Below are positions 8,816 through 30,589 of a stretch of DNA of 64,000 nt, piece by piece; position 1 is the first letter of the stretch, and every line of letters begins with the position of its first letter. The notes beneath the pieces are model-generated. The model saw only the letters and a program-made list of their open reading frames with translations. It was not told where the DNA came from and made no database searches. Origin of the DNA: an uncultured Clostridia bacterium (GTDB taxonomy: Bacteria > Bacillota > Clostridia > Oscillospirales > Oscillospiraceae); contig CAMNQX010000009.1 of assembly GCA_946550725.1 (NCBI GenBank), forward strand, positions 69 to 64,068, in the 5' to 3' direction. The translations under genes were made by a program, and so were the position numbers.

Positions 8816-8851
8816 AACAAAGAAGGCGGCATATATGCCGCCTTCTTTGTT
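8816..8851. terminator. Bidirectional rho-independent terminator downstream of buk.
   Basis: Perfect inverted repeat AACAAAGAAGGCGGC-atatat-GCCGCCTTCTTTGTT with A-rich and T-rich flanks that work in both orientations. Confidence 0.85.
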
Positions 8852-8911: not shown

Positions 8912-10018
8912 CTACGAAAATGAGAAGCCTGTCCAGGTGGGAACGCCGGTGTATGTCTTTAATGCCTCCTTGCCCTCCAAAACGCGGATCACACCTGCGG
9001 CCATGGCCTCCATTTCAAACTCGCCGGGGTAAGAGGTGACCGGGGCAATAAAACTGCAATCCTCGGTGATCCGTTGGACCAGGCCCTGATCGTGTACAAT
9101 GCCGCCGCCTAACAGGATGCCGTCCACCTTGCCCTTTAATACGACGGCCATGGCGCCAATGTATTTTTCGATCTGGTAAATAAAGGCGTCCCACACCAGA
9201 GCTGCCTCCCGGTCGCCTGCTGCGACGCGGGCGGTGATCTCCCTGGCATCGGAGGTCCCCAGGAGGGAAACGAAGCCGCCGGTCTTGACGGCCAAGGCCT
9301 TTACGGCGTTCCCAACGGCGCCGGTGTTCCTCATATAGTTCAGAATTTCAACGACAGGGATGGAACCGCAGCGCGTCGGCGCCATAGGGCCTTCGCCGCC
9401 GACGATATCGTTGCCGTCGATCATTCTGCCGTGATCGTGGGCGCTGACGGACACGCCGCCTCCAATGTGACAAACGATAAAGCTGCAGTCCTCATACCGC
9501 TTGCCGATGTTCTGTGCGTGACGGATGGCGGTCTCTTTCAGGTTCAGGGCGTGAAGATGCACGTTCCGGTACACGCCCTTGATCCCGGTCACCCGGGCGA
9601 CATCCTGAAGCTCATCCGTGTCCGGGGGATTGACAACGTACGCCTTCTTGCCATAGGCGTCCGCATATTTCTGAGCCAGCTGGGGGCCAAGGGTCGCCGG
9701 ATGGGGAACACCGTTTGCGATATGAACTGCGTGGTCCAGCAGTACATCATTCACGGCGTAGGTGCCGCCCTCGACGCCCAAAAGTCCGCCGCCGCGGCCT
9801 ACAAAAGCGTCCACGCCGCTCAGATCCACATGATGCTCCGCCAGCAGACGGCTGATGGTCTCTTCGCGGTAGGGCAGTTGCTGGGAAATGGAGGCAAACT
9901 CTTTGAGTTTGTCCGCGTCGTGGGACACGTTGGCGCCAAACAGCTTTTCTTCCCCGTCAAACAACGCGATCTTGGTAGAGGTCGAGCCGGGATTGACAGC
10001 AAAAATCTTGTAGCCCAT
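8912..10018 (-). CDS. buk: Butyrate kinase.
   Basis: N-terminus MGYKIFAVNPGSTSTKIALF (ASKHA phosphate-1 motif typical of Buk), 368 aa, immediately downstream of a Pta/Ptb-family gene. Confidence 0.9.
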   Translation of the reverse strand: MGYKIFAVNPGSTSTKIALFDGEEKLFGANVSHDADKLKEFASISQQLPYREETISRLLAEHHVDLSGVDAFVGRGGGLLGVEGGTYAVNDVLLDHAVHIANGVPHPATLGPQLAQKYADAYGKKAYVVNPPDTDELQDVARVTGIKGVYRNVHLHALNLKETAIRHAQNIGKRYEDCSFIVCHIGGGVSVSAHDHGRMIDGNDIVGGEGPMAPTRCGSIPVVEILNYMRNTGAVGNAVKALAVKTGGFVSLLGTSDAREITARVAAGDREAALVWDAFIYQIEKYIGAMAVVLKGKVDGILLGGGIVHDQGLVQRITEDCSFIAPVTSYPGEFEMEAMAAGVIRVLEGKEALKTYTGVPTWTGFSFS

Positions 10019-10022
10019 CTGA

Positions 10023-11024
10023 TCACCCGTTTCTCTGTGCTCTGACGCAGCTCATGACCACATTTCCAATCAGCTCCGACACCGGCGAGCTTCTGGAACA
10101 GTCGCAGACGATCTTGTTGAAGCCCTGCAGGAAAGGACCGTACGCGTCGGCGTGCGCAAACTGCTGGACGAGCTTCACACCCACGTTCCCCACGTCGATG
10201 TTGGTCCAGATAATGATATTTGCTTTGCCGGCGACCTTGGAATCCCGCTGGACCTTTTTGGCCGCGACGGCGGGGTCGACGGCGGAATCCAGTTGGAATT
10301 CGCCGTCAATGGCCAGATCCGGCCGCTTTTCGTTGGCGATCCGCACGGCCTCCACCACCTTGTCCACCATCTGCCCCACGCCGGAGCCGCACGTGGAGTA
10401 AGAGAGCATGGCGCATCTTGGCTCCCAGTCGGTCAGGGCGGCAACGGTCTCGCACGCGGAGATGGCGATGCCCGCCAGATCCTCGGCGCTGGGGTCTACG
10501 CACACCGCAGAGTCGCCGAAGGCGAGAAGACTGCCCTCGGACCCGTTATAGCCGGGGATATTGAAAATGCCGCAGCTGGATACCGTGTTGACCCCTTCCT
10601 TCATGCCGATCACCGTTTGGCCCGCTAAGATCACATCGCCTGTGGTATGCGTCAGCCCGGCAAAGGTAACGTCGATCTGGCCGTTGGCCTGCATCATAAG
10701 GGCGGTGAACATGGGGTCGGCGTTTGCCCGCCTTGTCATCGACTTGGCAGAGAACAGGGGATAGGCCGCCACATATTCCGTAACGGTTTTTTCGATGAAC
10801 GCTTCGTCGTATCCGTCCACTACTTGGATGCCCTCCAGAGAAATGCCGAACCGTTCCGCCGCCGCACGGATGTCCGCCGGGCGGCCGACCAGAACGGGGA
10901 TGCAATACCCGTTGTCATGCAATTCCTTTGCCGCCAGCAGGATCTTTTCTTCCGTTGCCTCCGGAAAGGCGACCCGCTGAGGGTGCGCCTTCGCTTTGGC
11001 ATAAATGCGTTCCATCATATCCAT
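10023..11024 (-). CDS. Phosphate acyltransferase of the Pta/Ptb family. Probably a phosphate butyryltransferase given the 4-nt spacing to buk, although its 333 aa is closer to Pta size.
   Basis: The N-terminus ...AKAHPQRVAFPEATEEKILLAAKEL... and the later DGEFQLDSA region are typical of the PTA_PTB family. Confidence 0.8.
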   Translation of the reverse strand: MDMMERIYAKAKAHPQRVAFPEATEEKILLAAKELHDNGYCIPVLVGRPADIRAAAERFGISLEGIQVVDGYDEAFIEKTVTEYVAAYPLFSAKSMTRRANADPMFTALMMQANGQIDVTFAGLTHTTGDVILAGQTVIGMKEGVNTVSSCGIFNIPGYNGSEGSLLAFGDSAVCVDPSAEDLAGIAISACETVAALTDWEPRCAMLSYSTCGSGVGQMVDKVVEAVRIANEKRPDLAIDGEFQLDSAVDPAVAAKKVQRDSKVAGKANIIIWTNIDVGNVGVKLVQQFAHADAYGPFLQGFNKIVCDCSRSSPVSELIGNVVMSCVRAQRNG

Positions 11025-11126: not shown

Positions 11127-12947
11127 TTACCCCCGGTATGTAAACTCTCCGCTGGTGTACTTGGGCGGGATCACAGGGAGCTGCAAATAAGAGGGATAGC
11201 AGCCGCCGGTATGGATCACGTGTTGGACGCCTTCCGGTCCGTTGTCGGTATAGAAGTTCATGCCATGGTCCTCATACCAGTCTGTTTTGATAAATTCGGG
11301 CGTGATCTCGACGCGCAGCTCCTCTCCCGCGTGCCAGATACGGGCGTGGGGGTGGATCTCCACCTCCAACTCGTATACCTGGCCCGCCTCCATCGGCTCA
11401 TCCTTCTGGTGGGCCATGACGGGCTGGAAGTCGGTGGACTCCTTGGGGTCCAGCTGGCGGCGGGAGGCCCGGGACTGGCCCCACGCGCCGCGATAATCAA
11501 AGCCCATACAGTCGATAGGGACGTACTCGCCCTTTGCGTTGTATTTCTTCAGGAATACGAACAGATCCATGTTGTCATAGCCTCTCGCTTCCACAAACAG
11601 ATGAAGCTTGGAATAGCCGATGATCTCAACATCCTGACGGAAGCGAACAGAGAAAACGGCCATGCCGGTCTTGTTGTCATACGCCACCTCGGAGGTGGCT
11701 GTCGGCGGCTCCGGGGACATGGTTTGGTCCGCGGCGTTCAGATACAGCTTGGTGTACTGCGTCCTCTTGATGGGGAATTCCTTTTCCGGCTTGTTGCGGA
11801 TGTAGTCGTAGCTATAGGCGTCCATCACATCCACTCTGACTCTGGGCGTAAATTCCCAACCGTTGCGGATGTCCTTGAGATAACGGTCATAAAACCGTCT
11901 CAGATCAGCCAAATTGTCGGGATCGTAGGTATCCGGCCATTCCATATCTCTGTGGAGCCTCAACCATTTTTTGGGGGAGCGGATCTTCCGGAACCCGACG
12001 CAGGAGCCTCTCAGGTGGAAATGACACATGCCGCCGCACACATACGCGGGAACCTTGATCTTCTCCCACTTGGGCGTCTTGCTTCTCCAATACGCGTCGT
12101 AATAAGGGTGCAGCAGGTACATATTGCCCAGATCCTCGATCCAGCTTTTGCACGCGCACGCGGTAACAATGCCGTTTTCAAACCCCGGGCGGGGGATGCC
12201 GTTGAAGGTCAGGGACTCGGCGTACATGTTTCCGGTCCCCTCCCAGGCGGCGATGCAGGCCAGGTGAGGGGGCTGCTCCGCAGCGATCCTCCAGATCACC
12301 ATGCAGACGCCGGAATTGCCGAACAGGGTAACGCGCCCGTTGCACCAGGGCTGCTGGGCGATCCATTCGATATAGTCGTAGCCGTCCCTGCCGTCTTCGA
12401 CTCCCCAAAGGTTGACGTTTCCTTCGGAATTGCCGATGCCGCGAGGGTCCACATTGGCCACCGCGTAGCCGTAGTGGCACCAGTAAGCGGGATCGGCGGC
12501 CTCAAATTTGGCCATTTCAGATACCGTCTGAGGCGGGACTCCCATGAGCTTCCACCCGTCCTGGCCCTCGTGGGGGCGCTTGCCGAAGGGACCCCAGCAA
12601 ACGATCACGGGAAGCGGCTCGGGCGCGTTCACGGGACGGTAGATGTCGGAATAAATGGTGACGCCGTCTCGCAGGACACAGGGCACATCCTGATCGCAGG
12701 TAATGTGAGGCGCTGCCTTCGTGGCGGTATACGTGCGGGGGTGATATTCCGCGCAGATGGAGAAGTCCGGGACCTGCTGGCCGGAAGCCCGCAGGGCTTC
12801 CACCTCCTTCAAGGTTTTCCCGGGGTGGCCCCGGCGGAAGATGACGTCGATCTCCTCGCCCTCATAGGTGCGCTTTTCCACCATAAAATGCTGGGTATCT
12901 TCCCGGGAATAGGTGGGCATACCGTCAAGCTTTGTGATCTTCTGCAT
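11127..12947 (-). CDS. CocE/NonD-family (peptidase S15-like) alpha/beta hydrolase.
   Basis: YRPV...PVIV...ANVDPRGIGNSEG...WIAQQPWCNGRVTLFGNSGVC (GxSxG nucleophile elbow) and 606 aa are typical of the family. An AAGGAGGA Shine-Dalgarno lies inside the 3' end of the upstream MBL gene. Confidence 0.8.
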   Translation of the reverse strand: MQKITKLDGMPTYSREDTQHFMVEKRTYEGEEIDVIFRRGHPGKTLKEVEALRASGQQVPDFSICAEYHPRTYTATKAAPHITCDQDVPCVLRDGVTIYSDIYRPVNAPEPLPVIVCWGPFGKRPHEGQDGWKLMGVPPQTVSEMAKFEAADPAYWCHYGYAVANVDPRGIGNSEGNVNLWGVEDGRDGYDYIEWIAQQPWCNGRVTLFGNSGVCMVIWRIAAEQPPHLACIAAWEGTGNMYAESLTFNGIPRPGFENGIVTACACKSWIEDLGNMYLLHPYYDAYWRSKTPKWEKIKVPAYVCGGMCHFHLRGSCVGFRKIRSPKKWLRLHRDMEWPDTYDPDNLADLRRFYDRYLKDIRNGWEFTPRVRVDVMDAYSYDYIRNKPEKEFPIKRTQYTKLYLNAADQTMSPEPPTATSEVAYDNKTGMAVFSVRFRQDVEIIGYSKLHLFVEARGYDNMDLFVFLKKYNAKGEYVPIDCMGFDYRGAWGQSRASRRQLDPKESTDFQPVMAHQKDEPMEAGQVYELEVEIHPHARIWHAGEELRVEITPEFIKTDWYEDHGMNFYTDNGPEGVQHVIHTGGCYPSYLQLPVIPPKYTSGEFTYRG

Positions 12948-13767
12948 GGTTTACGATCCTCCTTTTGGCCACAATGATCGCGTGCTTTCCCTTTTGACTT
13001 TCATGTAGGTACATCCTGCCGCCAAATTGAGGGTAGAACGGATCTGCATAATGTGATGTTTTCGCTTCATCATAGCTCTGGGCGCACTCCAGCATCGCCT
13101 CAACATCCTCGCGGGTCAGCAGCTCCTTGCTGTGGGAGGAGAGGAGAAAGGAAAAATCGATGGCTGAAATGTCCTTCAGCATCTGGAGGTGCTGTTTGAC
13201 GGAAGATGCTTCGGGGAAGTTCAAGCACGCCAGGAGGCAGACGGAGTCTCCGCCCAAAAGCAGCTTCCGCTCCTGCACATAGAAGCCGGTCATTCCCGGG
13301 CTGTGGGAACCCATGGGCACAGGTCTGACATGGACCCCGCCGAGATCGATCTCCTCCTCCATATTCAGGGCTTCGACGTTTTCCATGCGGTACGCAAGGT
13401 ATTGCTCTGTGCGCGTTTGGTCCGGCGCCAAACCCATTTGGGCAAAATGCTCCAGCGCCGCGGGCCTGATATCAAGAGCGCTGAGGTACAGACACCCGAC
13501 GGCGAAGTCCTTTTGGTTGAGATAGACCCGGTCAAACTGGTAATTCCCCCCGATGTGGTCCAGGTGCGCGTGGGTGTTGCACACGATGCAGGGCTTGCCG
13601 GTCAAAGCGCCCACCACCGCCTTCAGATCCGCATACCCGGTACAGGTATCCACCAAAAGGGCACGCTCTGCGCCCACGATCAGGGTGGCGCAGACCCCGG
13701 TGGCGTCCTGCATGTGGTACACGCCGTCCAACGGCTGGTAGACGTTCAGATCAAAAATCGTTTGCAT
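12925..13767 (-). CDS. MBL-fold metallo-hydrolase.
   Basis: HxHxDH motif (THAHLDHIGG). Overlaps the CocE/NonD start by 23 nt. Confidence 0.85.
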   Translation of the reverse strand: MQTIFDLNVYQPLDGVYHMQDATGVCATLIVGAERALLVDTCTGYADLKAVVGALTGKPCIVCNTHAHLDHIGGNYQFDRVYLNQKDFAVGCLYLSALDIRPAALEHFAQMGLAPDQTRTEQYLAYRMENVEALNMEEEIDLGGVHVRPVPMGSHSPGMTGFYVQERKLLLGGDSVCLLACLNFPEASSVKQHLQMLKDISAIDFSFLLSSHSKELLTREDVEAMLECAQSYDEAKTSHYADPFYPQFGGRMYLHESQKGKHAIIVAKRRIVNHAEDHKA

Positions 13768-13828
13768 ATCGTTACCCCAAAGCCGGAAATGAGGCCTTCC
13801 CGGTCGTCCCCCCGGCAGACCGGGACGA

Positions 13829-14071
13829 TCAGAACTGTTCTTCCATCCACTGGGCGACCTCGCCGAAGGTCTTCATCTTTTTGATGGTCATGAAGGGCAC
13901 CTCGATCTCAAAGGCGTCCTCCAGGGCGGCGGAGAACTGCACCATATTGGCGGACTTGCAGTGTAGGTCCTCTTCAAATCTGGTGTTTTCGTTCAAGAAG
14001 GACGCGTCGATGCCAAAAATGGCATGCGCCTTGCCGCGCAGCACGTCCAACGCTTCTTCCTTAATTTCCAT
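13829..14071 (-). CDS. Acyl/peptidyl carrier protein-like (80 aa).
   Basis: FEEDLHCKSANMVQFSAALEDAFEIEVP aligns with the ACP pattern F.eDLg.DSl..velv.alEeeFgieip, so the Ser in CKS would be the phosphopantetheine attachment site. Confidence 0.7.
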   Translation of the reverse strand: MEIKEEALDVLRGKAHAIFGIDASFLNENTRFEEDLHCKSANMVQFSAALEDAFEIEVPFMTIKKMKTFGEVAQWMEEQF

Positions 14072-14137
14072 GTTGTTTTCCTCCCTCGTCCCACGACCTT
14101 CTACACATCTGCGTGAAAGGTCATGCGGTGGATGTCC

Positions 14138-14821
14138 TTATGATCTTTTGATCAGCTCAGCCAGCTCGCCCACCGTCTTTGCCCTAGCGGCCGCCTCTGT
14201 GATGGAGATCATCACGTCGAACTCGTCCTCCAGAGACGCGATCAGGCCCACAAACACGACGGATGCGACCTTAAAGCTGTCAAAACGGGTATCTGCGGTG
14301 ATCTCGGAAGGGTCCTTCTTATAAGAACGGGCGACCAGCGGGATCAGACGGGACAGCGTCTCGTCCATGACCGGCGTGGCCCCGGCAGCGGGCGTTGCGG
14401 GCGCCTCCTGCTCCACTTCGTCAATGGTGAAAACAGCGGTCTTGTAGCCGTCCCTCTGAACGATCTTCGCGTGAACGGGGTAGGGGAGCTTCGCGCGGAT
14501 CTGGGCCTCGTTTTCCTTGGTGACCCCGGTGACCATCACATTCCGCTCAATGCCCTCCTTCAGCTTTACCACTGCGTAACAGTAAGGCTCCAGGTCCTTC
14601 AGCGCGGGCTTCAAGCTCATCACGGAGGGGAGGACAAACAACGTCATTTCCCCTTCGCCGCTGATTTCCCTCCATTCGGTCTCCATATGTCCGCAGATAT
14701 TGCAGGCGTATACGGGAGGCCACTCCATATTTCCGCACTTGGGGCAGTAACGGCCCAGGATCTTTCCCTCTTCCAGCTTGTCGTAATAGGTCTTAACGAT
14801 CTTTTCCAACTTTACAGCCAC
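14138..14821 (-). CDS. DUF35-type Zn-ribbon/OB-fold protein fused to a C-terminal carrier-protein-like domain.
   Basis: The N-terminal CPKCGNMEWPPVYACNICG rubredoxin-like Zn ribbon plus following OB region is the usual DUF35 partner of SCP-x-type thiolases. The C-terminal RFDSFKVASVVFVGLIASLEDEFDV...TVGELAELI looks ACP-like. Confidence 0.7.
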   Translation of the reverse strand: MAVKLEKIVKTYYDKLEEGKILGRYCPKCGNMEWPPVYACNICGHMETEWREISGEGEMTLFVLPSVMSLKPALKDLEPYCYAVVKLKEGIERNVMVTGVTKENEAQIRAKLPYPVHAKIVQRDGYKTAVFTIDEVEQEAPATPAAGATPVMDETLSRLIPLVARSYKKDPSEITADTRFDSFKVASVVFVGLIASLEDEFDVMISITEAAARAKTVGELAELIKRS

Positions 14822-14838
14822 GTTGATCTGCCTCCTTC

Positions 14839-16140
14839 TCAGCCCTTGGTACGAATGATGATATTACACAGATTCTGTCCGCCGCCAAACCCGCGGAGGA
14901 AGACGGTCCTGGGGACCTTGCGAATGGGCTTGAACGCCTCCCCACGCATCTGCTTGACCGCGTCATAAAAGTCGGCAAGGCCGGACGCCGCGTGCGCATG
15001 GCCAAATGCCGTGCGGCCGCCGTTGGGGTTGATGGGCTTGTCGCCATCGATGTTGGTGCGGCCCTCCATGACATACTTCCACGCCTCGCCCTCCGGGATG
15101 TAGCCTGTGATCTCCGCGGCAAGGAGCTGGGAGGAGATGATAAAGTCGTTGACGTACATCAGGTCGATCTCCTCGGGCTTTACGCCGGTGGCGTTGTAGA
15201 CCTGGCGGGTCGCTTCGATGGTGCCGGCCACCTCCAGGAAGGGATTGGACGCCTCCAACGCAGCGTTGCCAACACCCAGGATCTCAATGGGTGTGTGGGG
15301 CAGACCGCGGGAAATGGCCCAGTCGGTGGCCGCGACGATCACAGCCGCGGCGCCGTCGCATTTGTGCTCCAGCCCGGAAATACGCATGATGCCGCCCACC
15401 TTGGGATTGTAGGGGGACTCCATGTACTCCAGAACGTCGTCAAAGCCGGCGTTCCGGGCGGCGGTCTCATACAGGCTCTCTTCGGTGTGGTCAATGGCCA
15501 GCGGATTGCCAAGGGCGTTGTGGCGGGCGTTCACCGCCAACATACAAAGCGCGTCGTCGATCTGCTTCGTACTCAGACCGTGCCTTTGCTGATACCATGC
15601 GGCGCCGTTATCGTGGCCGATGTTGCACAGCAGATGACGGGTATAGGCGTTATCGCTCAGCCATTCCGTGGAGATCTGGAACTCTTCAAAGGAGAACTTC
15701 TTGCGCATATGGGCGGGCTTTCCCTGAATGGCAAGGGCGTCGCCAAACTCTACGCAGGCGGTCAGCACGCAGTCGTACTTGCCGGAGGCCACGTCCTTCA
15801 TGGCCTGGTCCACCGCCAGATATCCGGTGCAGCAGGCCTCGGAGTGGTGGACGGACGGCTTCCCCCGCATGCCGATCCACTCGGCGACCTGCATATTGGG
15901 AGTCAGGTAGTTGGAGCCGTTCAGGGGAGAGGCGCAGCCGTGATAGTAAAAATCGACGTCCTTGGGGGTGATCCCCGCGTCCTCCATGGCGGACAGCGCC
16001 GCGTAGCCAAAGAGATCGCCTTCGGTGTAGCCGGCGGTTTCCGGGTCGTTCAGCGTTTCCCGGAAGGGCGTGCATCCCACGCCGATGATGGAAACGCTGC
16101 GCGCAAGCTTCCCGGGGTTGGTCTGATTCACATAGTTCAT
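14839..16140 (-). CDS. Thiolase-superfamily protein (SCP-x/nonspecific lipid-transfer type, the type that pairs with DUF35).
   Basis: 433 aa with the active-site cysteine context SEACCTGYLAVDQA, the C-terminal GGRTAFGHAHAASG and GFGGGQN thiolase signatures, and adjacency to the DUF35 gene. Confidence 0.8.
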   Translation of the reverse strand: MNYVNQTNPGKLARSVSIIGVGCTPFRETLNDPETAGYTEGDLFGYAALSAMEDAGITPKDVDFYYHGCASPLNGSNYLTPNMQVAEWIGMRGKPSVHHSEACCTGYLAVDQAMKDVASGKYDCVLTACVEFGDALAIQGKPAHMRKKFSFEEFQISTEWLSDNAYTRHLLCNIGHDNGAAWYQQRHGLSTKQIDDALCMLAVNARHNALGNPLAIDHTEESLYETAARNAGFDDVLEYMESPYNPKVGGIMRISGLEHKCDGAAAVIVAATDWAISRGLPHTPIEILGVGNAALEASNPFLEVAGTIEATRQVYNATGVKPEEIDLMYVNDFIISSQLLAAEITGYIPEGEAWKYVMEGRTNIDGDKPINPNGGRTAFGHAHAASGLADFYDAVKQMRGEAFKPIRKVPRTVFLRGFGGGQNLCNIIIRTKG

Positions 16141-16322
16141 AAAATGCTTTCTCCTTTTGATTCAAACGGTTTTGTTGTTGAAGCGTCCAGGTTCTTTTAT
16201 TATAGGGGCCGCCCCCTGTGTTTGGTATGTGCGTACGCCTTGAAAATCACGAGATCCGGTGGGTTGCCTTGTGCAAACGCACAATACGCCTTGATGCGGC
16301 TGGCGCCACGGGCTTACGGTGG

Positions 16323-17558
16323 TCATTCCCGCCCCCTTCTTTTCTCTCTGGCCCTGCGGTTCAGAAAAACGACAGAGATCAGAAGGGACACGGCGCAGAT
16401 GCCGATGGAGCAGCCGTAGGTGATCCGGTACCCGGCTGCGGCGGAGGGGGCCAGATCCATGACCTTTCCAAATACGCTGGAAGAGAACAGGATCCCAAAA
16501 TCCATCGTAAAGTAAAACGTCGCGTTTGCCTCAGAGGACCGCTCCTTCGGCGAATCCACCACGGCGATGGCGTTCATCGTCGGAAGCACGGACGCGTTGC
16601 CGATGCCGTACAGGACGCCGCAGAGGAGAAAAAGAGGATAGGTGGCGGGACCGCTTTTCAGGGGAATGAAAATAGCCAGGGCGGCGGCGATGCAAAGATG
16701 GCCCGGCACGATCATCACCAGCTCCCCGTACCGGTCCGCCAGTTTGCCGCCAAACAGCCGGACGACCAGCATCGCCGCAGCGGCGGCAACGTAGAACATG
16801 GAGATCTGGGAGGGGCTTAGCCCCAGCATTTCCTGGGCATATACGGAGGAAAAAACCAAAATACAGGCAAAAGCGGCAAAAAACACCGTGTAGTTGATGC
16901 TGGGGAGCAGCGCCCTTTTCTCCAGCAGCCGTGAAAGACCCTCGCGGGGCGGTTTTTCGGCTGTCCGGCGCGCCGCCCGCTTGACCGGCGTGTATTTCAC
17001 AAAAGCGCCAAACAGAGCGCCGCAGGCGACCACCGCGGCGCAGATCAGAAACATCCGGTCATACCGGTCGTTCGCACCGACCATATGTAATGCGAGCATC
17101 GGTCCGAACGCCATGGCGAATGCGGAGCCAAGGCCGAAAAGTCCCATTCCCTCGTTCATCTGCTCGTCCGGCGTCACATCTGCGATTACAGAAGAACAGG
17201 CTACCGTAATGACGCCCTTGGCGACGCCCTGAAGCAGTCTGGCCAGGAGCGTGATGTGTTCCTTGGGCATCAGCACAAACAGAAGCGTGGAGGCGCCATA
17301 CAGCAGCGAGAAGCTGACAATGGACCGTTTCTTGCCAAATGCTTCAATGAGGGGGGCGGAAAGAAGGGCCATGAGAATAGAGCCTACATTGAAGAACGAG
17401 GTCAAAAGGCCGCCCATCGTTTTGGAACCCCACAAAAAAGCGGCAAAGGGGGAGAGCGTCGTATTCAGCATCTGTGTGGACACGTTCAGGCAAAGGACCG
17501 ACATGGTGGCCATGACGAAGCTTGCGCTCAAAAAGGCTATTTTGGGGGGTGTTTTCAT
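16323..17558 (-). CDS. MFS transporter.
   Basis: About 12 hydrophobic segments. The start is moved to the internal ATG (MKTPPKIAFL...) at 17558, which has an AAAGGGGA Shine-Dalgarno. The upstream 53 codons of the track ORF are not membrane-like. Confidence 0.8.
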   Translation of the reverse strand: MKTPPKIAFLSASFVMATMSVLCLNVSTQMLNTTLSPFAAFLWGSKTMGGLLTSFFNVGSILMALLSAPLIEAFGKKRSIVSFSLLYGASTLLFVLMPKEHITLLARLLQGVAKGVITVACSSVIADVTPDEQMNEGMGLFGLGSAFAMAFGPMLALHMVGANDRYDRMFLICAAVVACGALFGAFVKYTPVKRAARRTAEKPPREGLSRLLEKRALLPSINYTVFFAAFACILVFSSVYAQEMLGLSPSQISMFYVAAAAAMLVVRLFGGKLADRYGELVMIVPGHLCIAAALAIFIPLKSGPATYPLFLLCGVLYGIGNASVLPTMNAIAVVDSPKERSSEANATFYFTMDFGILFSSSVFGKVMDLAPSAAAGYRITYGCSIGICAVSLLISVVFLNRRAREKRRGRE

Positions 17559-17590
17559 TTTTGTTTCCCCTTTCGACGGCTGATGGCTGC

Positions 17591-17620
17591 AAACGGCAGG
17601 CCCCGAAGGGCCTGCCGTTT
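17591..17620 (-). other. Very stable hairpin in the 5' leader of the MFS/thiolase operon (13-bp perfect stem, UUCG loop on the transcript).
   Basis: AAACGGCAGGCCC-cgaa-GGGCCTGCCGTTT read directly. It lies 33-62 nt upstream of the MFS ATG. Confidence 0.6.
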
Positions 17621-17836
17621 CGGTGCTTCCCATTATATCGGTTGTTTCGTGACCCGTATATGTGCGCGCGCCTTGAAAAAGAGAAAATATGACGGAATAC
17701 TTTGTGCGAACGAACAATTTGGCGGCAAGAGGAAAACGAGGACTTCTGCATCTCCTTTGATATATTTAGGGGAATGAAAGAGAGGATTTTCGGACAAATA
17801 GAACGGTTCCCTTTCGCTTTTTATGGAACGGGCGAC

Positions 17837-17865
17837 TTGAAAAGCAACAGTTCTTGTGCTATCCT
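17837..17865 (+). promoter_or_regulatory. Sigma-70-like promoter for the PPTase gene: TTGAAA, 17-nt spacer, TATCCT.
   Basis: Read directly. The -10 ends only 8 nt before the ATG at 17874, and no Shine-Dalgarno is present. Confidence 0.4.
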
Positions 17866-17873
17866 TTATACAT

Positions 17874-18485
17874 ATGAACAACAAGAAAAGCACGGCCATT
17901 CTCTTAACAGACGTCAGATCCTTTGAGGATCAGGCGCTCTTCCTCCACTATCTGTCCAGGGCAAACGCGGAAAGGCGGCGTGAGGTTGAAGAAGAGCAAT
18001 TTGCTGACGACAGATACCTTTCTTTGGGAGGCGGGGCGCTTCTGGACCGGCTGTTGACGGAATGGGGGATCCATGGAGAGATCCGGCATGATGAGCAGGG
18101 AAAGCCTGTGGTTGACCGGCGCCCGGAGCTGCATGTCTCTCTCACCCACGCGTATCCGTATGCCGCCGCCATGATCTCCGACGCGCCCTGCGGGCTGGAT
18201 ATTGAGCGCAGGGACCGGGAGCTGGAGGCGGTCGTGCGGCGCTATTACAACGAGCGGGAAAAACGCTATGCTGGAGGGGATCAGGACAGGATCACGGACG
18301 TCTGGTGCCGGAAGGAATGCGTCATTAAATGCTGGGGGCCTCGGGACGTCAGAGAGATCGACACCTTTGCCATTCCGCCGGATCACGAGTACGTCAGTAT
18401 TCCGCTGCCCGGCTACTCCTTTGAGGTCCTCAAGAAAAAGGGAGACTACCTCTTCCGGAACGTCCGCCTGGACACGGACTGGTGA
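17874..18485 (+). CDS. Sfp-type 4'-phosphopantetheinyl transferase.
   Basis: PPTase motifs GKPVV, HVSLTHA, GLDIER and VWCRKECVIKCWG (W..KE...K). Confidence 0.85.
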   Translation: MNNKKSTAILLTDVRSFEDQALFLHYLSRANAERRREVEEEQFADDRYLSLGGGALLDRLLTEWGIHGEIRHDEQGKPVVDRRPELHVSLTHAYPYAAAMISDAPCGLDIERRDRELEAVVRRYYNEREKRYAGGDQDRITDVWCRKECVIKCWGPRDVREIDTFAIPPDHEYVSIPLPGYSFEVLKKKGDYLFRNVRLDTDW

Positions 18486-18587: not shown

Positions 18588-20231
18588 GTGATCTTTCAGG
18601 AGCTGCTGGCGGCGTTGGCGGACGACCATCCGGTCGCTTTTGCGCAGGCGTGCCCTGAGGTACCCATCCATACGGTGATGCCGCTGGACCACCCGGTCGA
18701 GGCACGAGGCAACATCCTGTATATCGCCCGGTCGGCAGACCGCCTGACAGACCTGAGCGTTCCGGCGGACGACGCGATCTGCAATATACTGGTGCTTCAG
18801 CACATTCGGACGCTCCCGGAGAACCTGGCCCGGGGGCGTCTGAACCTGTACTGTCTTTCCGGGCCGGAGCTTTATCCCACTGTGATGGAGGAGATCGCGC
18901 GGCTGAACAGCCTTGAGATGAAGCGCAACGAATCCATAGGGGTCCTGACGGCGGCGCTGCTGTCCAACCGGGGGAATCAGAACCTTTTGGACCGGGCGCA
19001 CGAGCTGCTGGGGCATCCCATCCTGCAGATCAGCCTGGCCAGCGAAAACATACTCTATTCCTGCAGTAGGGAAGAGCTGGCGGCCTGCCCGGAGCTGGAG
19101 AAGACCATCGCGCAGATCCGCAGCGGGAAGCTGACCTCCTCCTCGTCCGCCGCCATGCTGCGGCTGCTGGGCAGCGAGGCTGTTTCCATGCTGACCGGCG
19201 AGCCTGCCCCGGAAATACTCCGGCGATTCAATGACGAGCTGCAGACAGAACAGATCTCTGTGCTGCTGCGGGTCAAGCATCTGGAAGTGGGGATCATCAC
19301 GGTATATGCCGCGGGACGTCCCTTTCAGGCGCCGGATGAAGAGATCATTCAGCGCCTGAGCGTATTGGCGGGCCAGGAGCTGCAAAAAAAGAGCCTTTAT
19401 ACCCGCAATCCAAACGAGATCAAGGCTCAATTCCTGAATCATCTGATCTCGTCGCGCACCGTTTCCGAGGACTACATTTACCAGATGACCCAACTGCGGT
19501 ATGTGACGGAGATCAAGGACAAGTTTTACCTGATGGTGGTAGAAAGCATGGATGACGTGGCGCAGTTGGACACCAACCTGTTTTCCGCCCTGCTGGCGCA
19601 GATCCAGCCGATCCTGGTCCGCGCTCTGTACCTGATCCGGGATACGGAGCTGGTGGTTCTGTTCAACCTACCGGAAAGGGCTGATATTCACAGGCTGATC
19701 GACCAGGTGCTCGCGCCGAAATGCGAAAAATATCACCTGATCGCCGGCATCAGCAACATGTACCGGGACCTGCGGGAAACCGGGAAATACTATCATCAGG
19801 CGCAGAAATCCGCGTCCCTTGGGGCGATCTATCAGGACAGCGCGCTGAACTATTTTTCGGATATCGCGCCCAAGGAGATCCTGCACTACATGGCGGGACA
19901 GGAGGACCTGCTGTCCTTTTGCGTCCCGGAGGTGCTGGACCTGATGAACTACGACAAGGAAAACGGGACGGAGCTGACAGACACGCTGTATGTCTATCTG
20001 GAGCACGTGGGTAGGACGGCGCCCACGGCCCAGGCGCTGTATATTCACAAAAATACCTTACTCTACCGCATCTCCAGGATCAAAGATATCCTTCACTGCA
20101 CCATGGAAGAGGGCGAGGATGTCTATAAGCTGATGCTGTCCATTCGGATCCTGCGTACGCTGGCGCTGTATACGCCGCCGGAGCTGCGGAAAAAGCAGAA
20201 CGATTTTTCCGCAGCTTTACGGAAGAATTGA
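18588..20231 (+). CDS. PucR-family transcriptional regulator (GTG start).
   Basis: The C-terminal LTDTLYVYLEHVGRTAPTAQALYIHKNTLLYRISRIKDIL is the PucR-type helix-turn-helix. An AGAGGGAGG Shine-Dalgarno precedes the GTG. Confidence 0.8.
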   Translation: MIFQELLAALADDHPVAFAQACPEVPIHTVMPLDHPVEARGNILYIARSADRLTDLSVPADDAICNILVLQHIRTLPENLARGRLNLYCLSGPELYPTVMEEIARLNSLEMKRNESIGVLTAALLSNRGNQNLLDRAHELLGHPILQISLASENILYSCSREELAACPELEKTIAQIRSGKLTSSSSAAMLRLLGSEAVSMLTGEPAPEILRRFNDELQTEQISVLLRVKHLEVGIITVYAAGRPFQAPDEEIIQRLSVLAGQELQKKSLYTRNPNEIKAQFLNHLISSRTVSEDYIYQMTQLRYVTEIKDKFYLMVVESMDDVAQLDTNLFSALLAQIQPILVRALYLIRDTELVVLFNLPERADIHRLIDQVLAPKCEKYHLIAGISNMYRDLRETGKYYHQAQKSASLGAIYQDSALNYFSDIAPKEILHYMAGQEDLLSFCVPEVLDLMNYDKENGTELTDTLYVYLEHVGRTAPTAQALYIHKNTLLYRISRIKDILHCTMEEGEDVYKLMLSIRILRTLALYTPPELRKKQNDFSAALRKN

Positions 20232-20299
20232 GCTTGAAAGAGATTTTCTCTGATGATACATTGGAAGAAGCTTCTAACTGTATTTTTGGGGGGATCACG

Positions 20300-20788
20300 A
20301 TGAAACCGGAATTCAAGCAGCTTTTACAGATCGGCATTATTGTACGGGATGTGGACAAGGCGGTCCGCTACTATGAAGACGTGCTGGGTATGGGGCCTTG
20401 GGAAGTGAGCTTCATGCGCGGCGACCAGCCGCCCACGGACGACCTGATGATCGACGGGAAGCGCGAGACGGGGATCGTCAGCAAGCTGGCCTTCCTTCAC
20501 GCTTACGGGATCGAGATCGAGTTGATCCAACCCATCGGCGACAGCGCCTTCAAAACGTGGCTGGAGGAACACGGCCCCGGCATCCACCATATTGCCGCCG
20601 TGACCGACACGCCCTATGAACAACTGCTGGAGGACTACAAAACGTCCACCGGCCGGGACGTGTGGATCCGCGGGCAGGGCATCGGCGGATTGATGGACTA
20701 CTCCTTCCTGGACCTGCGGGAGGAAACGGGCCTGATCGTGGAGTGCTACAAAAACGTGCATCCCGACCGGCCCCGCGTTGATTATTGA
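20300..20788 (+). CDS. VOC-family (glyoxalase/epimerase-fold) protein.
   Basis: LLQIGIIVRDVDKAVRYYEDVLGMGPW...IELIQP...GPGIHHIA is the typical VOC/methylmalonyl-CoA-epimerase-like pattern. The start is placed at the ATG at 20300 (MKPEF...). Confidence 0.75.
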   Translation: MKPEFKQLLQIGIIVRDVDKAVRYYEDVLGMGPWEVSFMRGDQPPTDDLMIDGKRETGIVSKLAFLHAYGIEIELIQPIGDSAFKTWLEEHGPGIHHIAAVTDTPYEQLLEDYKTSTGRDVWIRGQGIGGLMDYSFLDLREETGLIVECYKNVHPDRPRVDY

Positions 20789-20796: not shown

Positions 20797-20835
20797 GAAA
20801 AAGCCTTGACACAGGTAACTGTGTCAAGGCTTTTT
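20797..20835. terminator. Bidirectional terminator between the convergent VOC and LacI genes.
   Basis: GCCTTGACACAG-gtaa-CTGTGTCAAGGC flanked by an A-run and a T-run. It overlaps the LacI stop codon. Confidence 0.8.
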
Positions 20836-21885: not shown

Positions 21886-22084
21886 AGCAACAACACCCTC
21901 CTATTTGTTTGGAATAATACTATTTTAGCAGATATTTTTGAATTTGCAACAGTATTTTCAGAAAAATGAAAAACTTTTCAAAAAGCTTTCACTTCGACTG
22001 AAAAAGCGCAAAAAATCGAGGTAAATCTGCATATTGTGCCTTGAGGCGCCTTGTGCAACACGACGAAATGCACAAGCGAGAAGT

Positions 22085-22120
22085 TGAAAACGTTGATTTG
22101 CTTGGACAATATGATAGAAT
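22085..22120 (+). promoter_or_regulatory. Candidate promoter of the sugar ABC operon (TTGATT, 16-nt spacer, TGaTAGAAT) overlapped by a cre/LacI-operator-like site, TGAAAACGTTGATT.
   Basis: Read directly. The operator-like site matches TGWAANCGNTNWCA at 12 of 14 positions and covers the -35. Confidence 0.4.
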
Positions 22121-22245
22121 GAAATCAGCCGAAGGGAGCGCAACGATGCACTGCGAAACGTTCTTAAAAAAATGAAAACAATTAAGAAAGATCCTGTGCA
22201 TCGCGCGGACCTTCAAAAACATCAGATTAGAAAGGAAGAACAAAA

Positions 22246-23286: not shown

Positions 23287-23366
23287 TCAAATGCAGATTC
23301 GCTCTGGCCTTTGCCGGCTTCTGCCGGCAAAGGCCAGTTTAAAAAGGCGAGGACAAGGAGAACACT

Positions 23367-24863: not shown

Positions 24864-24877
24864 AGGGAGATAAAACC

Positions 24878-25924: not shown

Positions 25925-25942
25925 TTATTAGGAGTGAAAAAC

Positions 25943-26464: not shown

Positions 26465-26476
26465 GGAGAGACAACT

Positions 26477-26971: not shown

Positions 26972-26983
26972 GGACAGGAGCAG

Positions 26984-29043: not shown

Positions 29044-29052
29044 GGTGGCGCC

Positions 29053-30571: not shown

Positions 30572-30589
30572 CAAACGGAGGTAATCTTA

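What the first reader, a model, noticed from the sequence alone, without database searches (positions are those of the whole stretch)
11127..18485. Carrier-protein-dependent thiolase/DUF35 cassette with MBL and CocE/NonD hydrolases, dedicated PPTase and PucR regulator, directly upstream of ptb-buk
Seen in the sequence: one minus-strand array runs MFS transporter, SCP-x-type thiolase, DUF35 Zn-ribbon/OB protein with a fused carrier-protein-like domain, free 80-aa carrier protein, MBL-fold hydrolase and CocE/NonD serine hydrolase. The last two overlap by 23 nt. After a 100-bp gap come a Pta/Ptb-family gene and buk. An Sfp-type phosphopantetheinyl transferase and a PucR regulator are transcribed divergently. 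Established: DUF35/thiolase pairs normally act on CoA thioesters. Examples are the archaeal thiolase/HMG-CoA-synthase complex, BbsAB, steroid side-chain aldolases, and PhlB/PhlC in the PhlACB Friedel-Crafts acetyltransferase. Inference: a DUF35 fused to a carrier domain, a second carrier and a private PPTase together suggest C-C bond formation or cleavage on a phosphopantetheine-tethered substrate. The two hydrolases could release or open the product, and ptb-buk could harvest the acyl unit as ATP. I know of no characterised pathway with this gene set. It has no KS/AT or NRPS domains.
Basis: partly seen in the sequence, partly recalled or inferred. Interest (0 to 1): 0.65.

Follow-up and report, generated by a model that had tools for sequence, protein, structure and literature searches.

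The report
Carrier-protein thiolase–kinase polyphenol catabolic module
This is a conserved, so far undescribed gene set of gut Clostridia that most likely cuts an acyl group off plant polyphenols (flavonoid-type compounds) onto a carrier protein and converts it to ATP, which would be a new way for gut bacteria to gain energy from dietary flavonoids.

Summary
All ten genes carry the stated domains, the 23-nt overlap and about 100-nt gap are correct, and both carrier domains keep the modifiable serine.

The cassette is one variant of a widespread module. Thiolase, DUF35, ACP, a Pta-like phosphotransacylase and butyrate kinase stay together, through rearrangements, in loci from many Lachnospiraceae, Oscillospiraceae and Erysipelotrichaceae. 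PucR, a PPTase and an MBL or alpha/beta hydrolase are often present.

The variable neighbours point to polyphenol catabolism:
- Full-length flavone-reductase (FLR) homologues in 22 of 80 loci.
- C-glycoside deglycosidase genes in the same operon in several lineages, and 9 kb away in this window.
- Enoate reductases.

Three sequence signatures fit this reading:
- The thiolase keeps the Cys/His pair but has lost the HDxF histidine, as in the Friedel-Crafts acylases PhlC and MucB.
- It has an invariant His at the position of PhlC's phenol-binding His56.
- The Pta-like enzyme keeps its catalytic Ser-Arg but never has the two CoA-binding arginines.

Best reading (inferred, untested): thiolytic removal of an acyl group from an acyl-phenol onto ACP, then acyl-phosphate, then ATP. 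I found no paper describing this module.

The parts
8816..8851 (.). Perfect 16-bp palindromic hairpin just downstream of buk. It is the likely terminator of the minus-strand operon.
   Evidence: No comparably strong terminator-like site lies between MFS and buk.
8912..10018 (-). Butyrate kinase family (Buk). Proposed step: acyl-phosphate + ADP gives acid + ATP.
   Evidence: TIGR02707 scores 372 bits against a cut-off of 289. Buk is found with the module in 33 of 45 long loci.
10023..11024 (-). Divergent Pta-like phosphotransacylase. Proposed step: acyl-S-ACP + Pi gives acyl-phosphate + holo-ACP.
   Evidence: PF01515 matches at 1.9e-83, but the protein scores below the NCBIfam Pta cut-offs. Ser309/Arg310 equivalents are kept. 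Arg87 is replaced by Phe (phmmer pairwise; MAFFT places Tyr) and Arg133 by Leu here. Neither position is ever Arg in 69 cluster-linked homologues.
11127..12947 (-). CocE/NonD-family serine hydrolase, an accessory of a minority variant. Its role is unknown; ester hydrolysis or acyl transfer are possible.
   Evidence: TIGR00976 scores 206 bits. The best PDB match is the uncharacterised 3ib3 at 2.6e-74, with the nucleophile Ser aligned. It is present in 6 of 80 GTDB loci.
12925..13767 (-). MBL-fold hydrolase with an intact HxHxDH motif. It is a candidate thioesterase that frees mis-acylated ACP, or a ring-opening enzyme.
   Evidence: PF00753 matches. There is no close solved relative. Fifteen of 80 loci carry MBL (7) or an alpha/beta hydrolase (8), never both in one locus.
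13829..14071 (-). Free 80-aa acyl carrier protein, with Ser in 'HCKSANMV'. It is the counterpart of the free ACP that precedes pta-buk in other loci.
   Evidence: PF00550 matches and the Ser aligns with E. coli ACP Ser36. In L014 and L015 this ACP type sits directly before PTA-BUK, and in L013 directly before a second BUK.
14138..14821 (-). DUF35 (Zn ribbon + OB fold) fused through an Ala/Pro linker to an ACP domain (Ser187).
   Evidence: (Cys26/29/40/43 invariant). Fused forms occur in 19 of 80 loci, some with two ACP domains.
14839..16140 (-). SCP-x/ACAT-type thiolase. Cys103 is the nucleophile and His381 is kept. The HDxF histidine is replaced (Asn331). His67 is invariant.
16269..16284 (.). 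Palindrome TTGTGCAAACGCACAA, 128 nt upstream of the thiolase start. It is a candidate operator. It lies inside a 60-nt module repeated at 17659-17718.
   Evidence: In other genomes 13 of 18 matches with at most one mismatch lie within 600 nt upstream of the thiolase gene.
16323..17558 (-). MFS transporter. The ORF runs to 17717, but the start is probably near 17558.
   Evidence: PF07690 matches. It is called as 411 aa on identical public contigs.
17702..17717 (.). Second, imperfect copy of the palindrome (TTGTGCGAACGAACAA), upstream of the MFS gene in the divergent promoter region.
17856..18485 (+). Sfp-type 4'-phosphopantetheinyl transferase.
   Evidence: PF01648 matches. A PPTase (Sfp or AcpS type) is found in 31 of 80 loci.
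18588..20231 (+). PucR-family regulator (GGDEF-like domain + HTH_30). It is the candidate binder of the palindrome.
   Evidence: One BLAST cluster of PucR proteins alone is present in 21 of 45 long loci, usually divergent from the thiolase.
20228..20788 (+). VOC/glyoxalase-fold protein. Its start overlaps the PucR stop by 4 nt.
   Evidence: The same family follows PucR in L010.
20824..31489 (.). Adjacent C-glycoside utilisation locus. It comprises LacI (20824-21885, minus), a sugar ABC system (22246-25924), two VOC proteins (25934-26971), a DgpA-like Gfo/Idh/MocA oxidoreductase (26984-28132) and a TIM barrel (28063-29043). It also holds the C-glycoside deglycosidase beta subunit (29053-29481), the alpha-like subunit (29471-30571) and a further TIM barrel (30590-31489).
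   Evidence: Pfam results, including PF19906 CGDB at 1.5e-30. The alpha-like subunit was found by tblastn. The same genes share an operon with the module in L054, L050 and L011.
38865..40838 (+). Enoate reductase (Oxidored_FMN + Pyr_redox_2). It is 69% identical to a family found beside the module in 8 other loci.

Best explanation
**Proposal**
The cassette is a variant of a conserved catabolic module of gut Firmicutes. The module removes an acyl side chain from a plant-derived acyl-phenol and conserves the bond energy as ATP without using CoA.

**Proposed steps (all inferred)**
1. The thiolase, held by its DUF35 partner, attacks the aryl-ketone carbonyl with Cys103. The likely substrate is a dihydrochalcone such as phloretin, or a related acyl-phloroglucinol or beta-dicarbonyl made from flavonoids or their C-glycosides. 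This is the PhlC-type Friedel-Crafts acyl transfer run in reverse. The phenol (phloroglucinol-type ring) leaves and the enzyme becomes acylated.
2. The acyl group passes to the phosphopantetheine thiol of the ACP. In this variant one ACP is fused to DUF35 and another is free. Both would be primed by the cluster's own PPTase.
3. The Pta-like enzyme phosphorolyses acyl-S-ACP to an acyl-phosphate. This is PlsX-like chemistry in a Pta fold.
4. Butyrate kinase makes ATP and releases the acid, for example a 3-arylpropionate.

**Accessory functions**
- MFS, DUF1097 or MATE proteins would move substrates and products.
- The MBL (or, elsewhere, an alpha/beta hydrolase) would rescue mis-acylated ACP or help ring opening.
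- A PucR-type regulator probably acts at a conserved TTGTGC-N4-GCACAA palindrome before the thiolase gene.
- Upstream enzymes differ by locus. Some loci have an FLR homologue plus a FAD_binding_2/Fe-S reductase set. Others, and this window nearby, have C-glycoside deglycosidase genes and an enoate reductase.

**What is shown**
Gene content, conservation, domain integrity and the residue signatures are shown. Substrate, direction and every chemical step are inferred.
For: **1. The core is conserved.** In 45 GTDB loci of at least 15 kb the counts are thiolase+DUF35 45, ACP 42, Pta-like 39 and Buk 33. The gene orders differ between loci.

**2. The ACP belongs to the thiolase.** DUF35 and ACP are fused in 19 of 80 loci, sometimes with two ACP domains. 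The carrier serine is conserved. A PPTase is present in 31 of 80 loci.

**3. The context is polyphenol catabolism.**
- A 320-aa FMN_red protein next to the core in 22 of 80 loci is a full-length homologue of flavone reductase. Its match to PDB 7D38 has E 1.8e-36.
- The Butyrivibrio copy keeps FLR His271 and Ile275.
- A 29.7%-identical FLR has been verified genetically.
- C-glycoside deglycosidase subunits lie in the same tightly spaced operon in L054, L050 and L011, and 9 kb away in the window.
- Overall, 26 of 45 long loci have at least one such neighbour.

**4. The thiolase has an acyl-enzyme active site of the PhlC type.**
- Cys103 and His381 are invariant.
- The HDxF histidine, essential for acetoacetyl-CoA chemistry and lost in PhlC/MucB, is Asn in at least 95% of 76 family members.
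- Invariant His67 aligns with PhlC His56. That residue binds a phloroglucinol OH and is essential. The archaeal ACATs have Val or Ile there.

**5. The Pta-like enzyme has altered thiol-substrate binding.** It keeps catalytic Ser309/Arg310 in 67 of 69 homologues. It never has Arg at positions 87 and 133. Those residues bind CoA and set its Km. All five solved Ptas shown keep Arg133.

**6. Nothing else can load the ACP.** An adenylating ligase signature occurs in 1 of 89 loci. The ACP must therefore be acylated by the thiolase or through acyl-phosphate.

**7. The kinase is a true Buk family member.** This fits an acyl group larger than acetyl.
Against: - No biochemical or clean expression evidence exists. 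The RNA-labelled runs gave either DNA-like long contigs or thin, even cover.
- No PhlA/HMGS-like third subunit occurs in any locus, so this is not a PhlACB-type complex.
- Other PhlC pocket residues are not matched. His383 and Ser386 stand where PhlC has Ser349 and Asp352.
- Asn-Asp-Phe at the HDxF site resembles the NEAF motif of classical thiolases (own knowledge). Ordinary thiolysis of a beta-ketoacyl thioester is therefore not excluded.
- Loss of Arg87/Arg133 is compatible with an ACP substrate but does not prove it. In PgPta these mutations had only moderate effects.
- Pta and Buk are reversible, so direction cannot be read from sequence.
- Nineteen of 45 long loci show no flavonoid-type neighbour within 10 kb.
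- This window's variant lacks FLR and the FAD_binding_2 reductase set. It has a CocE/NonD hydrolase and a second ACP that the model does not explain.
- The energetics of thiolysis of an aryl ketone are not established.
Confidence: 0.45

Rival explanations
1. The module and the ATP-yielding logic are the same, but the thiolase does ordinary thiolysis of an aliphatic beta-dicarbonyl. One candidate is a free beta-diketo acid from phloroglucinol ring cleavage, such as 3,5-dioxohexanoate (triacetate). Another is a beta-ketoacyl-ACP first loaded through Buk and the Pta-like enzyme running in reverse. Two acyl-ACPs would then yield two acyl-phosphates, for a net gain of one ATP.
For: - DUF35-associated thiolases such as BbsAB and the archaeal ACAT act on beta-keto thioesters. 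These are the closer sequence relatives (7yvy 2.4e-32 and BbsB 6.7e-22, against PhlC 8e-16).
- Two or three ACP domains per locus in some variants would suit a two-thiol reaction.
- Asn-Asp-Phe resembles the classical NEAF motif (own knowledge).
- The polyphenol context fits equally well, because phloroglucinol is degraded via triacetate.
Against: - The HDxF histidine is absent from the whole family. It is required for acetoacetyl-CoA cleavage in DUF35-type ACATs.
- No phloroglucinol reductase, cyclohydrolase or 3-hydroxyacyl dehydrogenase family recurs in the loci.
- The invariant His67 equivalent of PhlC His56 is unexplained.
Confidence: 0.2
2. The module is biosynthetic. Buk and the Pta-like enzyme activate a short-chain acid with ATP and load it on ACP. 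The thiolase/DUF35 pair then C-acylates a phenolic or enolic acceptor, as in PhlACB or MucABC. The product would be an acylated small molecule exported by the MFS or MATE pump.
For: - The thiolase signatures are PhlC/MucB-like.
- An ACP, a dedicated PPTase and a thioesterase-like hydrolase are typical of biosynthetic clusters.
- Export-type transporters are common neighbours.
- Pta and Buk are reversible.
Against: - No PKS, NRPS or type III PKS is present to make an acceptor.
- The module shares operons with catabolic and uptake genes: C-glycoside deglycosidase, GPH and ABC sugar importers, and FLR.
- PucR/LacI/AraC-type catabolic regulation is seen.
- 217 stretches in the GTDB species set encode a DUF35 relative, and the 80 fetched loci have very variable upstream enzymes, as in substrate-specific utilisation loci.
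Confidence: 0.12
3. The adjacency is fortuitous. On this view pta-buk are the organism's general fermentation genes and the thiolase/DUF35/ACP genes are an unrelated unit.
For: In the window a 102-nt gap separates CocE/NonD from pta.
Against: - Pta-like and Buk genes accompany the thiolase/DUF35/ACP genes in 31 of 45 long loci. They do so in several orders and often with 0-80 nt spacing.
- The Pta-like proteins form a distinct group lacking Arg87/Arg133.
- No terminator-like hairpin comparable to the one after buk lies between CocE/NonD and pta.
Confidence: 0.03

Closest known systems
PhlACB (Pseudomonas protegens) and MucABC/SmaATase (Streptococcus) Friedel-Crafts C-acyltransferases
   Same: - Both pair an ACAT-type thiolase subunit with a DUF35 subunit.
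- Both have an acyl-Cys intermediate (Cys88 aligns with Cys103), the GHx histidine and the aligned Glu116/Glu131.
- Both have lost the HDxF histidine.
- As in PhlC, a His stands at the phloroglucinol-binding position 56.
- The DUF35 fold matches PhlB and the MucABC subunit.
   Different: - No HMGS-like PhlA/MucA subunit is present.
- The thiol partner appears to be an ACP, often fused to DUF35, rather than CoA.
- The module is coupled to a phosphotransacylase and a kinase.
- The context is catabolic, not an antibiotic cluster.
- Several PhlC pocket residues differ.
[quoted passage not shown]
   Same: - Each has an SCP-x/ACAT-type thiolase-fold enzyme bound to a DUF35 Zn-ribbon/OB protein.
- These are the closest sequence and fold relatives.
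   Different: - They act on CoA thioesters.
- BbsB and the archaeal ACAT keep the HDxF histidine.
- None has an ACP, a PPTase or a pta-buk pair.
Pta-Ack and Ptb-Buk substrate-level phosphorylation; PlsX (acyl-ACP:phosphate acyltransferase)
   Same: - The order of events is thioester, then acyl-phosphate, then ATP.
- The Pta fold and catalytic Ser-Arg are kept.
- Buk passes its equivalog cut-off.
- PlsX is the known precedent for phosphorolysis of an acyl-ACP (own knowledge).
   Different: - The Pta-like enzyme falls below the Pta family cut-offs and lacks both CoA-binding arginines.
- It is paired with a Buk rather than an Ack.
- It is not a PlsX-family protein. Only a weak PF02504 hit was seen, in one homologue.
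Known gut flavone pathway: FLR, chalcone isomerase, enoate reductase (EnoR/Fcr), phloretin hydrolase (Phy)
   Same: - FLR homologues and enoate reductases are neighbours of the module.
- The proposed products, a phloroglucinol-type phenol plus an arylpropionate, are those of Phy.
   Different: - Phy hydrolyses the C-C bond and wastes the energy.
- Here the cleavage would be thiolytic and ATP-yielding.
- No CHI or Phy was recognised among the recurrent neighbours, although these two families were not searched for specifically.

Membership tests
DUF35-associated thiolase complex (BbsAB / archaeal ACAT type) | Thiolase fold with a nucleophilic Cys (CxS) and a GHx histidine | tested here: met
   Cys103 (the motif reads C-C-T) and His381 align with the 7yvy motifs. 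Both are invariant in 76 family members.
DUF35-associated thiolase complex (BbsAB / archaeal ACAT type) | Adjacent DUF35 protein with a Cys4 Zn ribbon and an OB fold | tested here: met
   PF12172 and PF01796 match. Cys26/29/40/43 are invariant. The fold matches DUF35 subunits.
DUF35-associated thiolase complex (BbsAB / archaeal ACAT type) | HDxF motif histidine, needed for Claisen or thiolytic chemistry on beta-ketoacyl-CoA | tested here: not met
   The motif is Asn331-Asp332-Phe333 in at least 95% of 76 sequences. The criterion comes from PMC12960953.
PhlACB/MucABC Friedel-Crafts acyltransferase | ACAT subunit that keeps CxS and GHx but lacks the HDxF histidine | tested here: met
PhlACB/MucABC Friedel-Crafts acyltransferase | Phenol-binding His56 (PhlC type) | tested here: met
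   A profile alignment to 9skh_I places invariant His67 on PhlC His56. The ACATs 7yvy and 6esq have Val and Ile there. MucB has Ala.
PhlACB/MucABC Friedel-Crafts acyltransferase | HMGS-like PhlA/MucA subunit encoded with the other two | tested here: not met
   No such family appears among the recurrent neighbours in 89 loci.
PhlACB/MucABC Friedel-Crafts acyltransferase | Acyl transfer to or from an activated phenol or enol carbon | not testable with these tools
   This needs an enzyme assay.
Phosphate acetyltransferase (Pta) | PTA_PTB fold with catalytic Ser309/Arg310 | tested here: met
   PF01515 matches at 1.9e-83. The Ser-Arg pair is kept in 67 of 69 homologues.
Phosphate acetyltransferase (Pta) | Score above the curated family cut-off | tested here: not met
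   TIGR00651 scores 246 against 311. NF007233 scores 263 against 310.
Phosphate acetyltransferase (Pta) | CoA-binding Arg87 and Arg133 | tested here: not met
   Neither is ever Arg in 69 cluster-linked proteins. Position 133 is L/A/Q/M/I and position 87 is P/N/E/Y/D/Q. The role of these residues comes from PMC6461089.
Butyrate kinase | Equivalog model score above the cut-off | tested here: met
   TIGR02707 scores 372 against 289. NF002834 scores 412 against 222.
Phosphopantetheine carrier protein system | PP-binding fold with Ser at the start of helix II, and a PPTase at hand | tested here: met
   An Sfp-type PPTase is encoded at 17856-18485.
Phosphopantetheine carrier protein system | Actual modification and acylation of the carriers | not testable with these tools
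   This needs intact-protein mass spectrometry.
PKS / FAS / NRPS biosynthetic cluster | KS, AT, A or C domains, or an adenylating loader | tested here: not met
   None is found in the window cassette. The AMP-binding signature occurs in 1 of 89 loci.

The most novel reading that the evidence does not exclude
Gut Firmicutes possess a CoA-independent, carrier-protein-based way of conserving energy from dietary polyphenols. It would combine three things. The first is a catabolic 'reverse Friedel-Crafts' thiolase that transfers the acyl side chain of dihydrochalcone-type compounds to an ACP. The second is the first Pta-family acyl-ACP:phosphate transacylase. The third is a butyrate-kinase-type enzyme that makes ATP while releasing arylpropionates such as desaminotyrosine. 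This route would replace the energy-wasting phloretin hydrolase step.
Probability: 0.35. Interest if true: 0.9.

Novelty: new variant of a known kind. Interest (0 to 1): 0.78.

Why it matters
**Physiology.** Flavonoid breakdown by gut bacteria sets which bioactive phenolic acids reach the host. The only known C-C cleavage of the dihydrochalcone intermediate is hydrolytic (Phy). A thiolytic, ATP-yielding route would explain why many Lachnospiraceae, Oscillospiraceae and Erysipelotrichaceae carry one or several copies of this module next to FLR-like and C-glycoside deglycosidase genes. It would give a growth benefit to polyphenol degradation. It would also add marker genes for predicting flavonoid metabolism from metagenomes.

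**Enzymology.** It would be the first catabolic use of a DUF35/thiolase complex with an ACP. It would also be the first Pta-fold enzyme acting on acyl-ACP. The module would be a natural, reversible route between acyl-phosphates, acyl-ACPs and C-acylated phenols, which is of interest for biocatalytic Friedel-Crafts chemistry.

**Testability.** Several cultured carriers exist: Butyrivibrio sp. AC2005, Faecalicatena fissicatena, Dielma fastidiosa, Enterocloster citroniae, Schaedlerella arabinosiphila and Hungatella hathewayi.

Tried and rejected
**Literature.** None returned a paper on a thiolase/DUF35/ACP/Pta/Buk cluster or linking DUF35 to flavonoids. Subscription journals are not covered, so prior description cannot be excluded.

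**Expression.**
- Two runs labelled RNA (X7, X8) gave single 13-25 kb contigs of flat depth across divergent genes. They look like DNA.
- Rat and mouse gut RNA-labelled runs gave thin, roughly even cover from buk to PucR. That is compatible with low expression or with DNA carry-over, so co-expression remains untested.

**Known phloroglucinol pathway.** This pathway (PGR, DPGC, TfD, TAL) was considered and not adopted. None of those families recurs next to the module.

**An adenylating acyl-ACP ligase as loader.** Rejected, because the signature occurs in 1 of 89 loci.

**Characterised relatives of the two hydrolases.** Searches for solved relatives of the MBL and CocE/NonD proteins gave only uncharacterised or distant hits. 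Their roles stay open.

**Housekeeping-type neighbours.** Those in the Limivicinus-type loci (L016-L019) carried no information.

**Method note.** Greedy longest-ORF gene calling was abandoned. In this G+C-rich DNA, shadow ORFs can be longer than the real genes, for example 11052-12977 on the plus strand over the CocE/NonD gene.

Full report
**1. Check of the observation**

The ORF list gives, on the minus strand:
- buk (8912-10018)
- a Pta/Ptb-family gene (10023-11024)
- a CocE/NonD hydrolase (11127-12947)
- an MBL-fold hydrolase (12925-13767)
- an 80-aa carrier protein (13829-14071)
- a 227-aa DUF35 protein with a C-terminal carrier domain (14138-14821)
- a 433-aa thiolase (14839-16140)
- an MFS transporter (16323-17717; probably starting near 17558, because identical public contigs call it as 411 aa)

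On the plus strand it gives a PPTase (17856-18485) and a PucR regulator (18588-20231).

Pfam and NCBIfam confirm every assignment. The MBL/CocE overlap is 23 nt and the gap before pta is 102 nt.

An AlphaFold model of the fusion (pLDDT 83.4) shows a helix, a Zn ribbon and an OB fold. A disordered linker (139-151) follows, then a four-helix bundle with Ser187 at the start of its second helix. Foldseek matches the first half to DUF35 subunits of known thiolase-type complexes and the second half to ACPs.

One correction is needed. The 'ptb' is nearer to Pta than to Ptb, yet below NCBI's cut-offs for Pta. The kinase is a bona fide butyrate kinase.

**2. The cassette is one variant of a widespread conserved module**

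Homologues of the DUF35 protein fall into two groups:
- fused forms of 226-350 aa, some with two ACP domains
- unfused forms of about 136 aa, at 53-60% identity

Contexts of four homologues already showed the same partners in different orders. One of these is a Hungatella locus whose DUF35 protein is indexed in 169 blocks of the public collection.

A scan of one genome per GTDB species found 217 stretches encoding a relative. I fetched 80 loci, from Lachnospiraceae, Oscillospiraceae and Erysipelotrichaceae.

I clustered all ORFs of the loci by BLASTP and removed shadow ORFs. Counts in the 45 loci of at least 15 kb:

| Gene | Loci (of 45) |
|---|---|
| thiolase + DUF35 | 45 |
| ACP, free or fused | 42 |
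| Pta-like | 39 |
| Buk | 33 |
| Pta-like and Buk together | 31 |
| PucR (one BLAST cluster only) | 21 |
| PPTase | 20 |

Two operon examples with tight spacing:
- Butyrivibrio sp. AC2005: FLR-like, FAD_binding_2, GltD/NuoG-like, NuoF/Fe-S, thiolase, DUF35, ACP, Pta-like, Buk, DUF1097, MBL, MFS, Sfp. The gaps are 10-78 nt apart from one of 712 nt, and PucR is divergent.
- Faecalicatena fissicatena: GPH transporter, DgpA-like, CGD-beta, CGD-alpha, thiolase, DUF35, ACP, Pta-like, Buk, DUF1097, MATE.

So pta-buk belongs to the unit. The CocE/NonD gene is present in 6 of 80 loci. The window-type second ACP (4 of 80) marks a minority variant, shared with Dielma fastidiosa and some Erysipelotrichaceae and Oscillospiraceae MAGs. 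In L014 and L015 of that variant the second ACP sits directly before pta-buk, and in L013 directly before a second buk. It is therefore the counterpart of the canonical free ACP, and the DUF35-fused ACP is the extra one.

**3. What the variable neighbours say**

- The 320-aa FMN_red protein found in 22 of 80 loci is a full-length homologue of flavone reductase FLR. Its match to PDB 7D38 has E 1.8e-36 over residues 1-289, and the identity of that entry is confirmed in PMC7862272.
- The Butyrivibrio copy keeps His271 and Ile275, which hold the flavone A/C rings. Thr279 and Lys282 differ.
- The same paper verified genetically a C. ljungdahlii FLR that is only 29.7% identical.
- C-glycoside deglycosidase beta subunits (PF19906), with their TIM-barrel partners and DgpA-like oxidoreductases, occur in 8 of 80 loci. 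In several they share the operon.
- In the window itself a complete C-glycoside utilisation locus lies at 20.8-31.5 kb. It comprises LacI, a sugar ABC system, VOC proteins, a DgpA-like gene, CGD-beta at 29053-29481 and CGD-alpha-like at 29471-30571.
- An enoate reductase at 38865-40838 is 69% identical to a family that neighbours the module in 8 other loci.
- Altogether 26 of 45 long loci have at least one such neighbour.
- The Catenibacillus genome paper, which catalogues flavonoid genes in a genus that carries the module (L048, L084), does not mention these genes. It notes one species with FLR, Fcr and CHI but no phloretin hydrolase.

**4. Active-site signatures: thiolase**

- Cys103 and His381 align with the catalytic Cys and GHx His of the ACAT 7yvy. 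Both are invariant in 76 family members.
- The position of the HDxF histidine is Asn331 throughout the family.
- PMC12960953 shows that this histidine is essential for acetoacetyl-CoA chemistry in DUF35-type ACATs. Its loss marks the Friedel-Crafts acylases PhlC and MucB.
- A profile of the N-terminal half aligns invariant His67 with PhlC His56. That residue hydrogen-bonds a phloroglucinol hydroxyl, and its replacement abolishes activity. The two archaeal-type ACATs have Val or Ile there.
- Cys103 aligns with PhlC Cys88, and Glu131 with Glu116.
- Against membership in the PhlACB kind: no PhlA/HMGS-like gene occurs in any locus, and the residues after the GHx histidine differ from PhlC.

**5. 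Active-site signatures: Pta-like enzyme**

- Aligned to Methanosarcina thermophila Pta, catalytic Ser309/Arg310 are kept in 67 of 69 cluster-linked proteins. Asp316 is Glu in 67 of 69.
- Arg87 and Arg133 are never arginine.
- These two residues lie in the CoA site occupied by acetyl-CoA in the P. gingivalis structure, and they set the Km for CoA.
- All five solved Ptas displayed keep Arg133.
- This fits a thiol substrate without the 3'-phospho-ADP part of CoA, that is, phosphopantetheine on ACP. It is not proof.
- Only 1 of 89 loci has an ORF with the adenylate-forming signature. The ACP can therefore be acylated only by the thiolase or through acyl-phosphate.

**6. Regulation**

A 60-nt module is repeated before the thiolase gene (16226-16285) and before the MFS gene (17659-17718). 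It contains the palindrome TTGTGCAAACGCACAA.

In the window there are 8 matches with up to two mismatches, against 2.8 expected. In 1.23 Mb of GTDB loci, 13 of 18 matches with at most one mismatch lie within 600 nt upstream of the thiolase ORF, often in the PucR-thiolase divergent region. This is a candidate operator of the PucR-type regulator (inference).

A 16-bp perfect hairpin at 8816-8851 follows buk. No comparable site lies inside the array. This is consistent with transcription from MFS or the thiolase through to buk.

**7. Most likely mechanism (inferred)**

1. An acyl-phenol produced from flavonoids or their C-glycosides is attacked by Cys103. A dihydrochalcone is the leading candidate. 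The phenol leaves.
2. The acyl group moves to the ACP thiol.
3. The Pta-like enzyme makes the acyl-phosphate.
4. Buk makes ATP and the free acid.

In canonical loci, the FLR-like enzyme and the FAD_binding_2/Fe-S reductase set would supply the two reductions from flavone to dihydrochalcone. In this window the supply would come from C-deglycosylation and the enoate reductase. The roles of CocE/NonD and MBL are unresolved.

Confidence in this full chain is about 0.45. Confidence in the more general statement is about 0.65. That statement is that this is a catabolic, ACP-dependent acyl-transfer module feeding substrate-level phosphorylation in polyphenol utilisation loci.

Rivals:
- Ordinary thiolysis of an aliphatic beta-dicarbonyl from phloroglucinol breakdown (0.2).
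- A biosynthetic C-acylation running in the opposite direction (0.12).
- Chance adjacency (0.03).

**8. Comparison with known systems, and novelty**

The module works like a PhlC-type acyltransferase joined to a PlsX-like phosphorolysis and a Ptb-Buk-like ATP step. It is not a member of the PhlACB/MucABC family, because the third subunit is missing. It is not a member of the BbsAB/archaeal ACAT kind, because the HDxF histidine is lost. Its phosphotransacylase does not qualify as Pta.

I found no description of it in ten full-text searches. Closed-access literature could not be checked. I rate it a new variant of a known kind, with a substantial chance of being a new mode of energy conservation.

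**9. What could not be settled**

Expression and co-expression remain open. The available runs were DNA-like or too thin. Substrate, direction and carrier modification all need experiments.

Noticed in passing
window 41714-53431 (+) and 41696-53401 (-): A giant 3,905-aa predicted surface protein carries two GDSL lipase domains, BNR/sialidase-like repeats, a ricin-type lectin domain and SLH domains. The opposite strand holds a stop-free antisense ORF of 3,901 codons over the same 11.7 kb. That is an unusually long shadow frame.
   Followed up: partly
window 4863-8012 (-): A 1,049-aa protein combines a PLD-nuclease domain, a ResIII/helicase domain and DUF3427, a defence- or restriction-like architecture. 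A NUDIX gene follows at 8025-8462. The first 6 kb of the window have lower G+C (0.45-0.52) than the rest (0.55-0.65).
   Followed up: no
window 20228-20788, 25934-26464, 26477-26971: Three VOC/glyoxalase-fold proteins lie in and beside the C-glycoside locus. The first overlaps the PucR stop codon, and the same family follows PucR in L010. Their role in polyphenol or keto-sugar chemistry is unknown.
   Followed up: no
window 32315-38853: Genes run in one direction between the C-glycoside locus and the enoate reductase. They encode a DUF6925 protein (535 aa), an FGGY sugar kinase, an iron-type alcohol dehydrogenase, a second MFS transporter and a D-2-hydroxyacid dehydrogenase. They may process the sugar released by C-deglycosylation.
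   Followed up: no
loci L015, L022, L023, L013, L029: Some genomes carry tandem or multiple copies of parts of the module: two thiolase/DUF35-ACP pairs in L015, two Pta-Buk pairs in L022 and L023, and a second Buk in L013. Several genomes have two separate loci (L020 with L038, L025 with L044, L026 with L058). This suggests substrate-specific paralogues, as in polysaccharide utilisation loci.
   Followed up: partly
loci L005, L032, L045, L059 and others; 20 of 80 GTDB loci: DUF1097, a small membrane protein of unknown function, follows buk in most canonical loci. Other loci have a different 152-aa membrane protein before the thiolase gene. These are candidate transporters for the phenolic substrate or product.
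   Followed up: no
window 8819-8851 in runs X7 and X8: Public assemblies break exactly at the palindromic hairpin after buk. Runs flagged 'RNA?' (X7, X8) contain 13-25 kb contigs of flat depth across divergent genes, so they are probably DNA libraries.
   Followed up: yes
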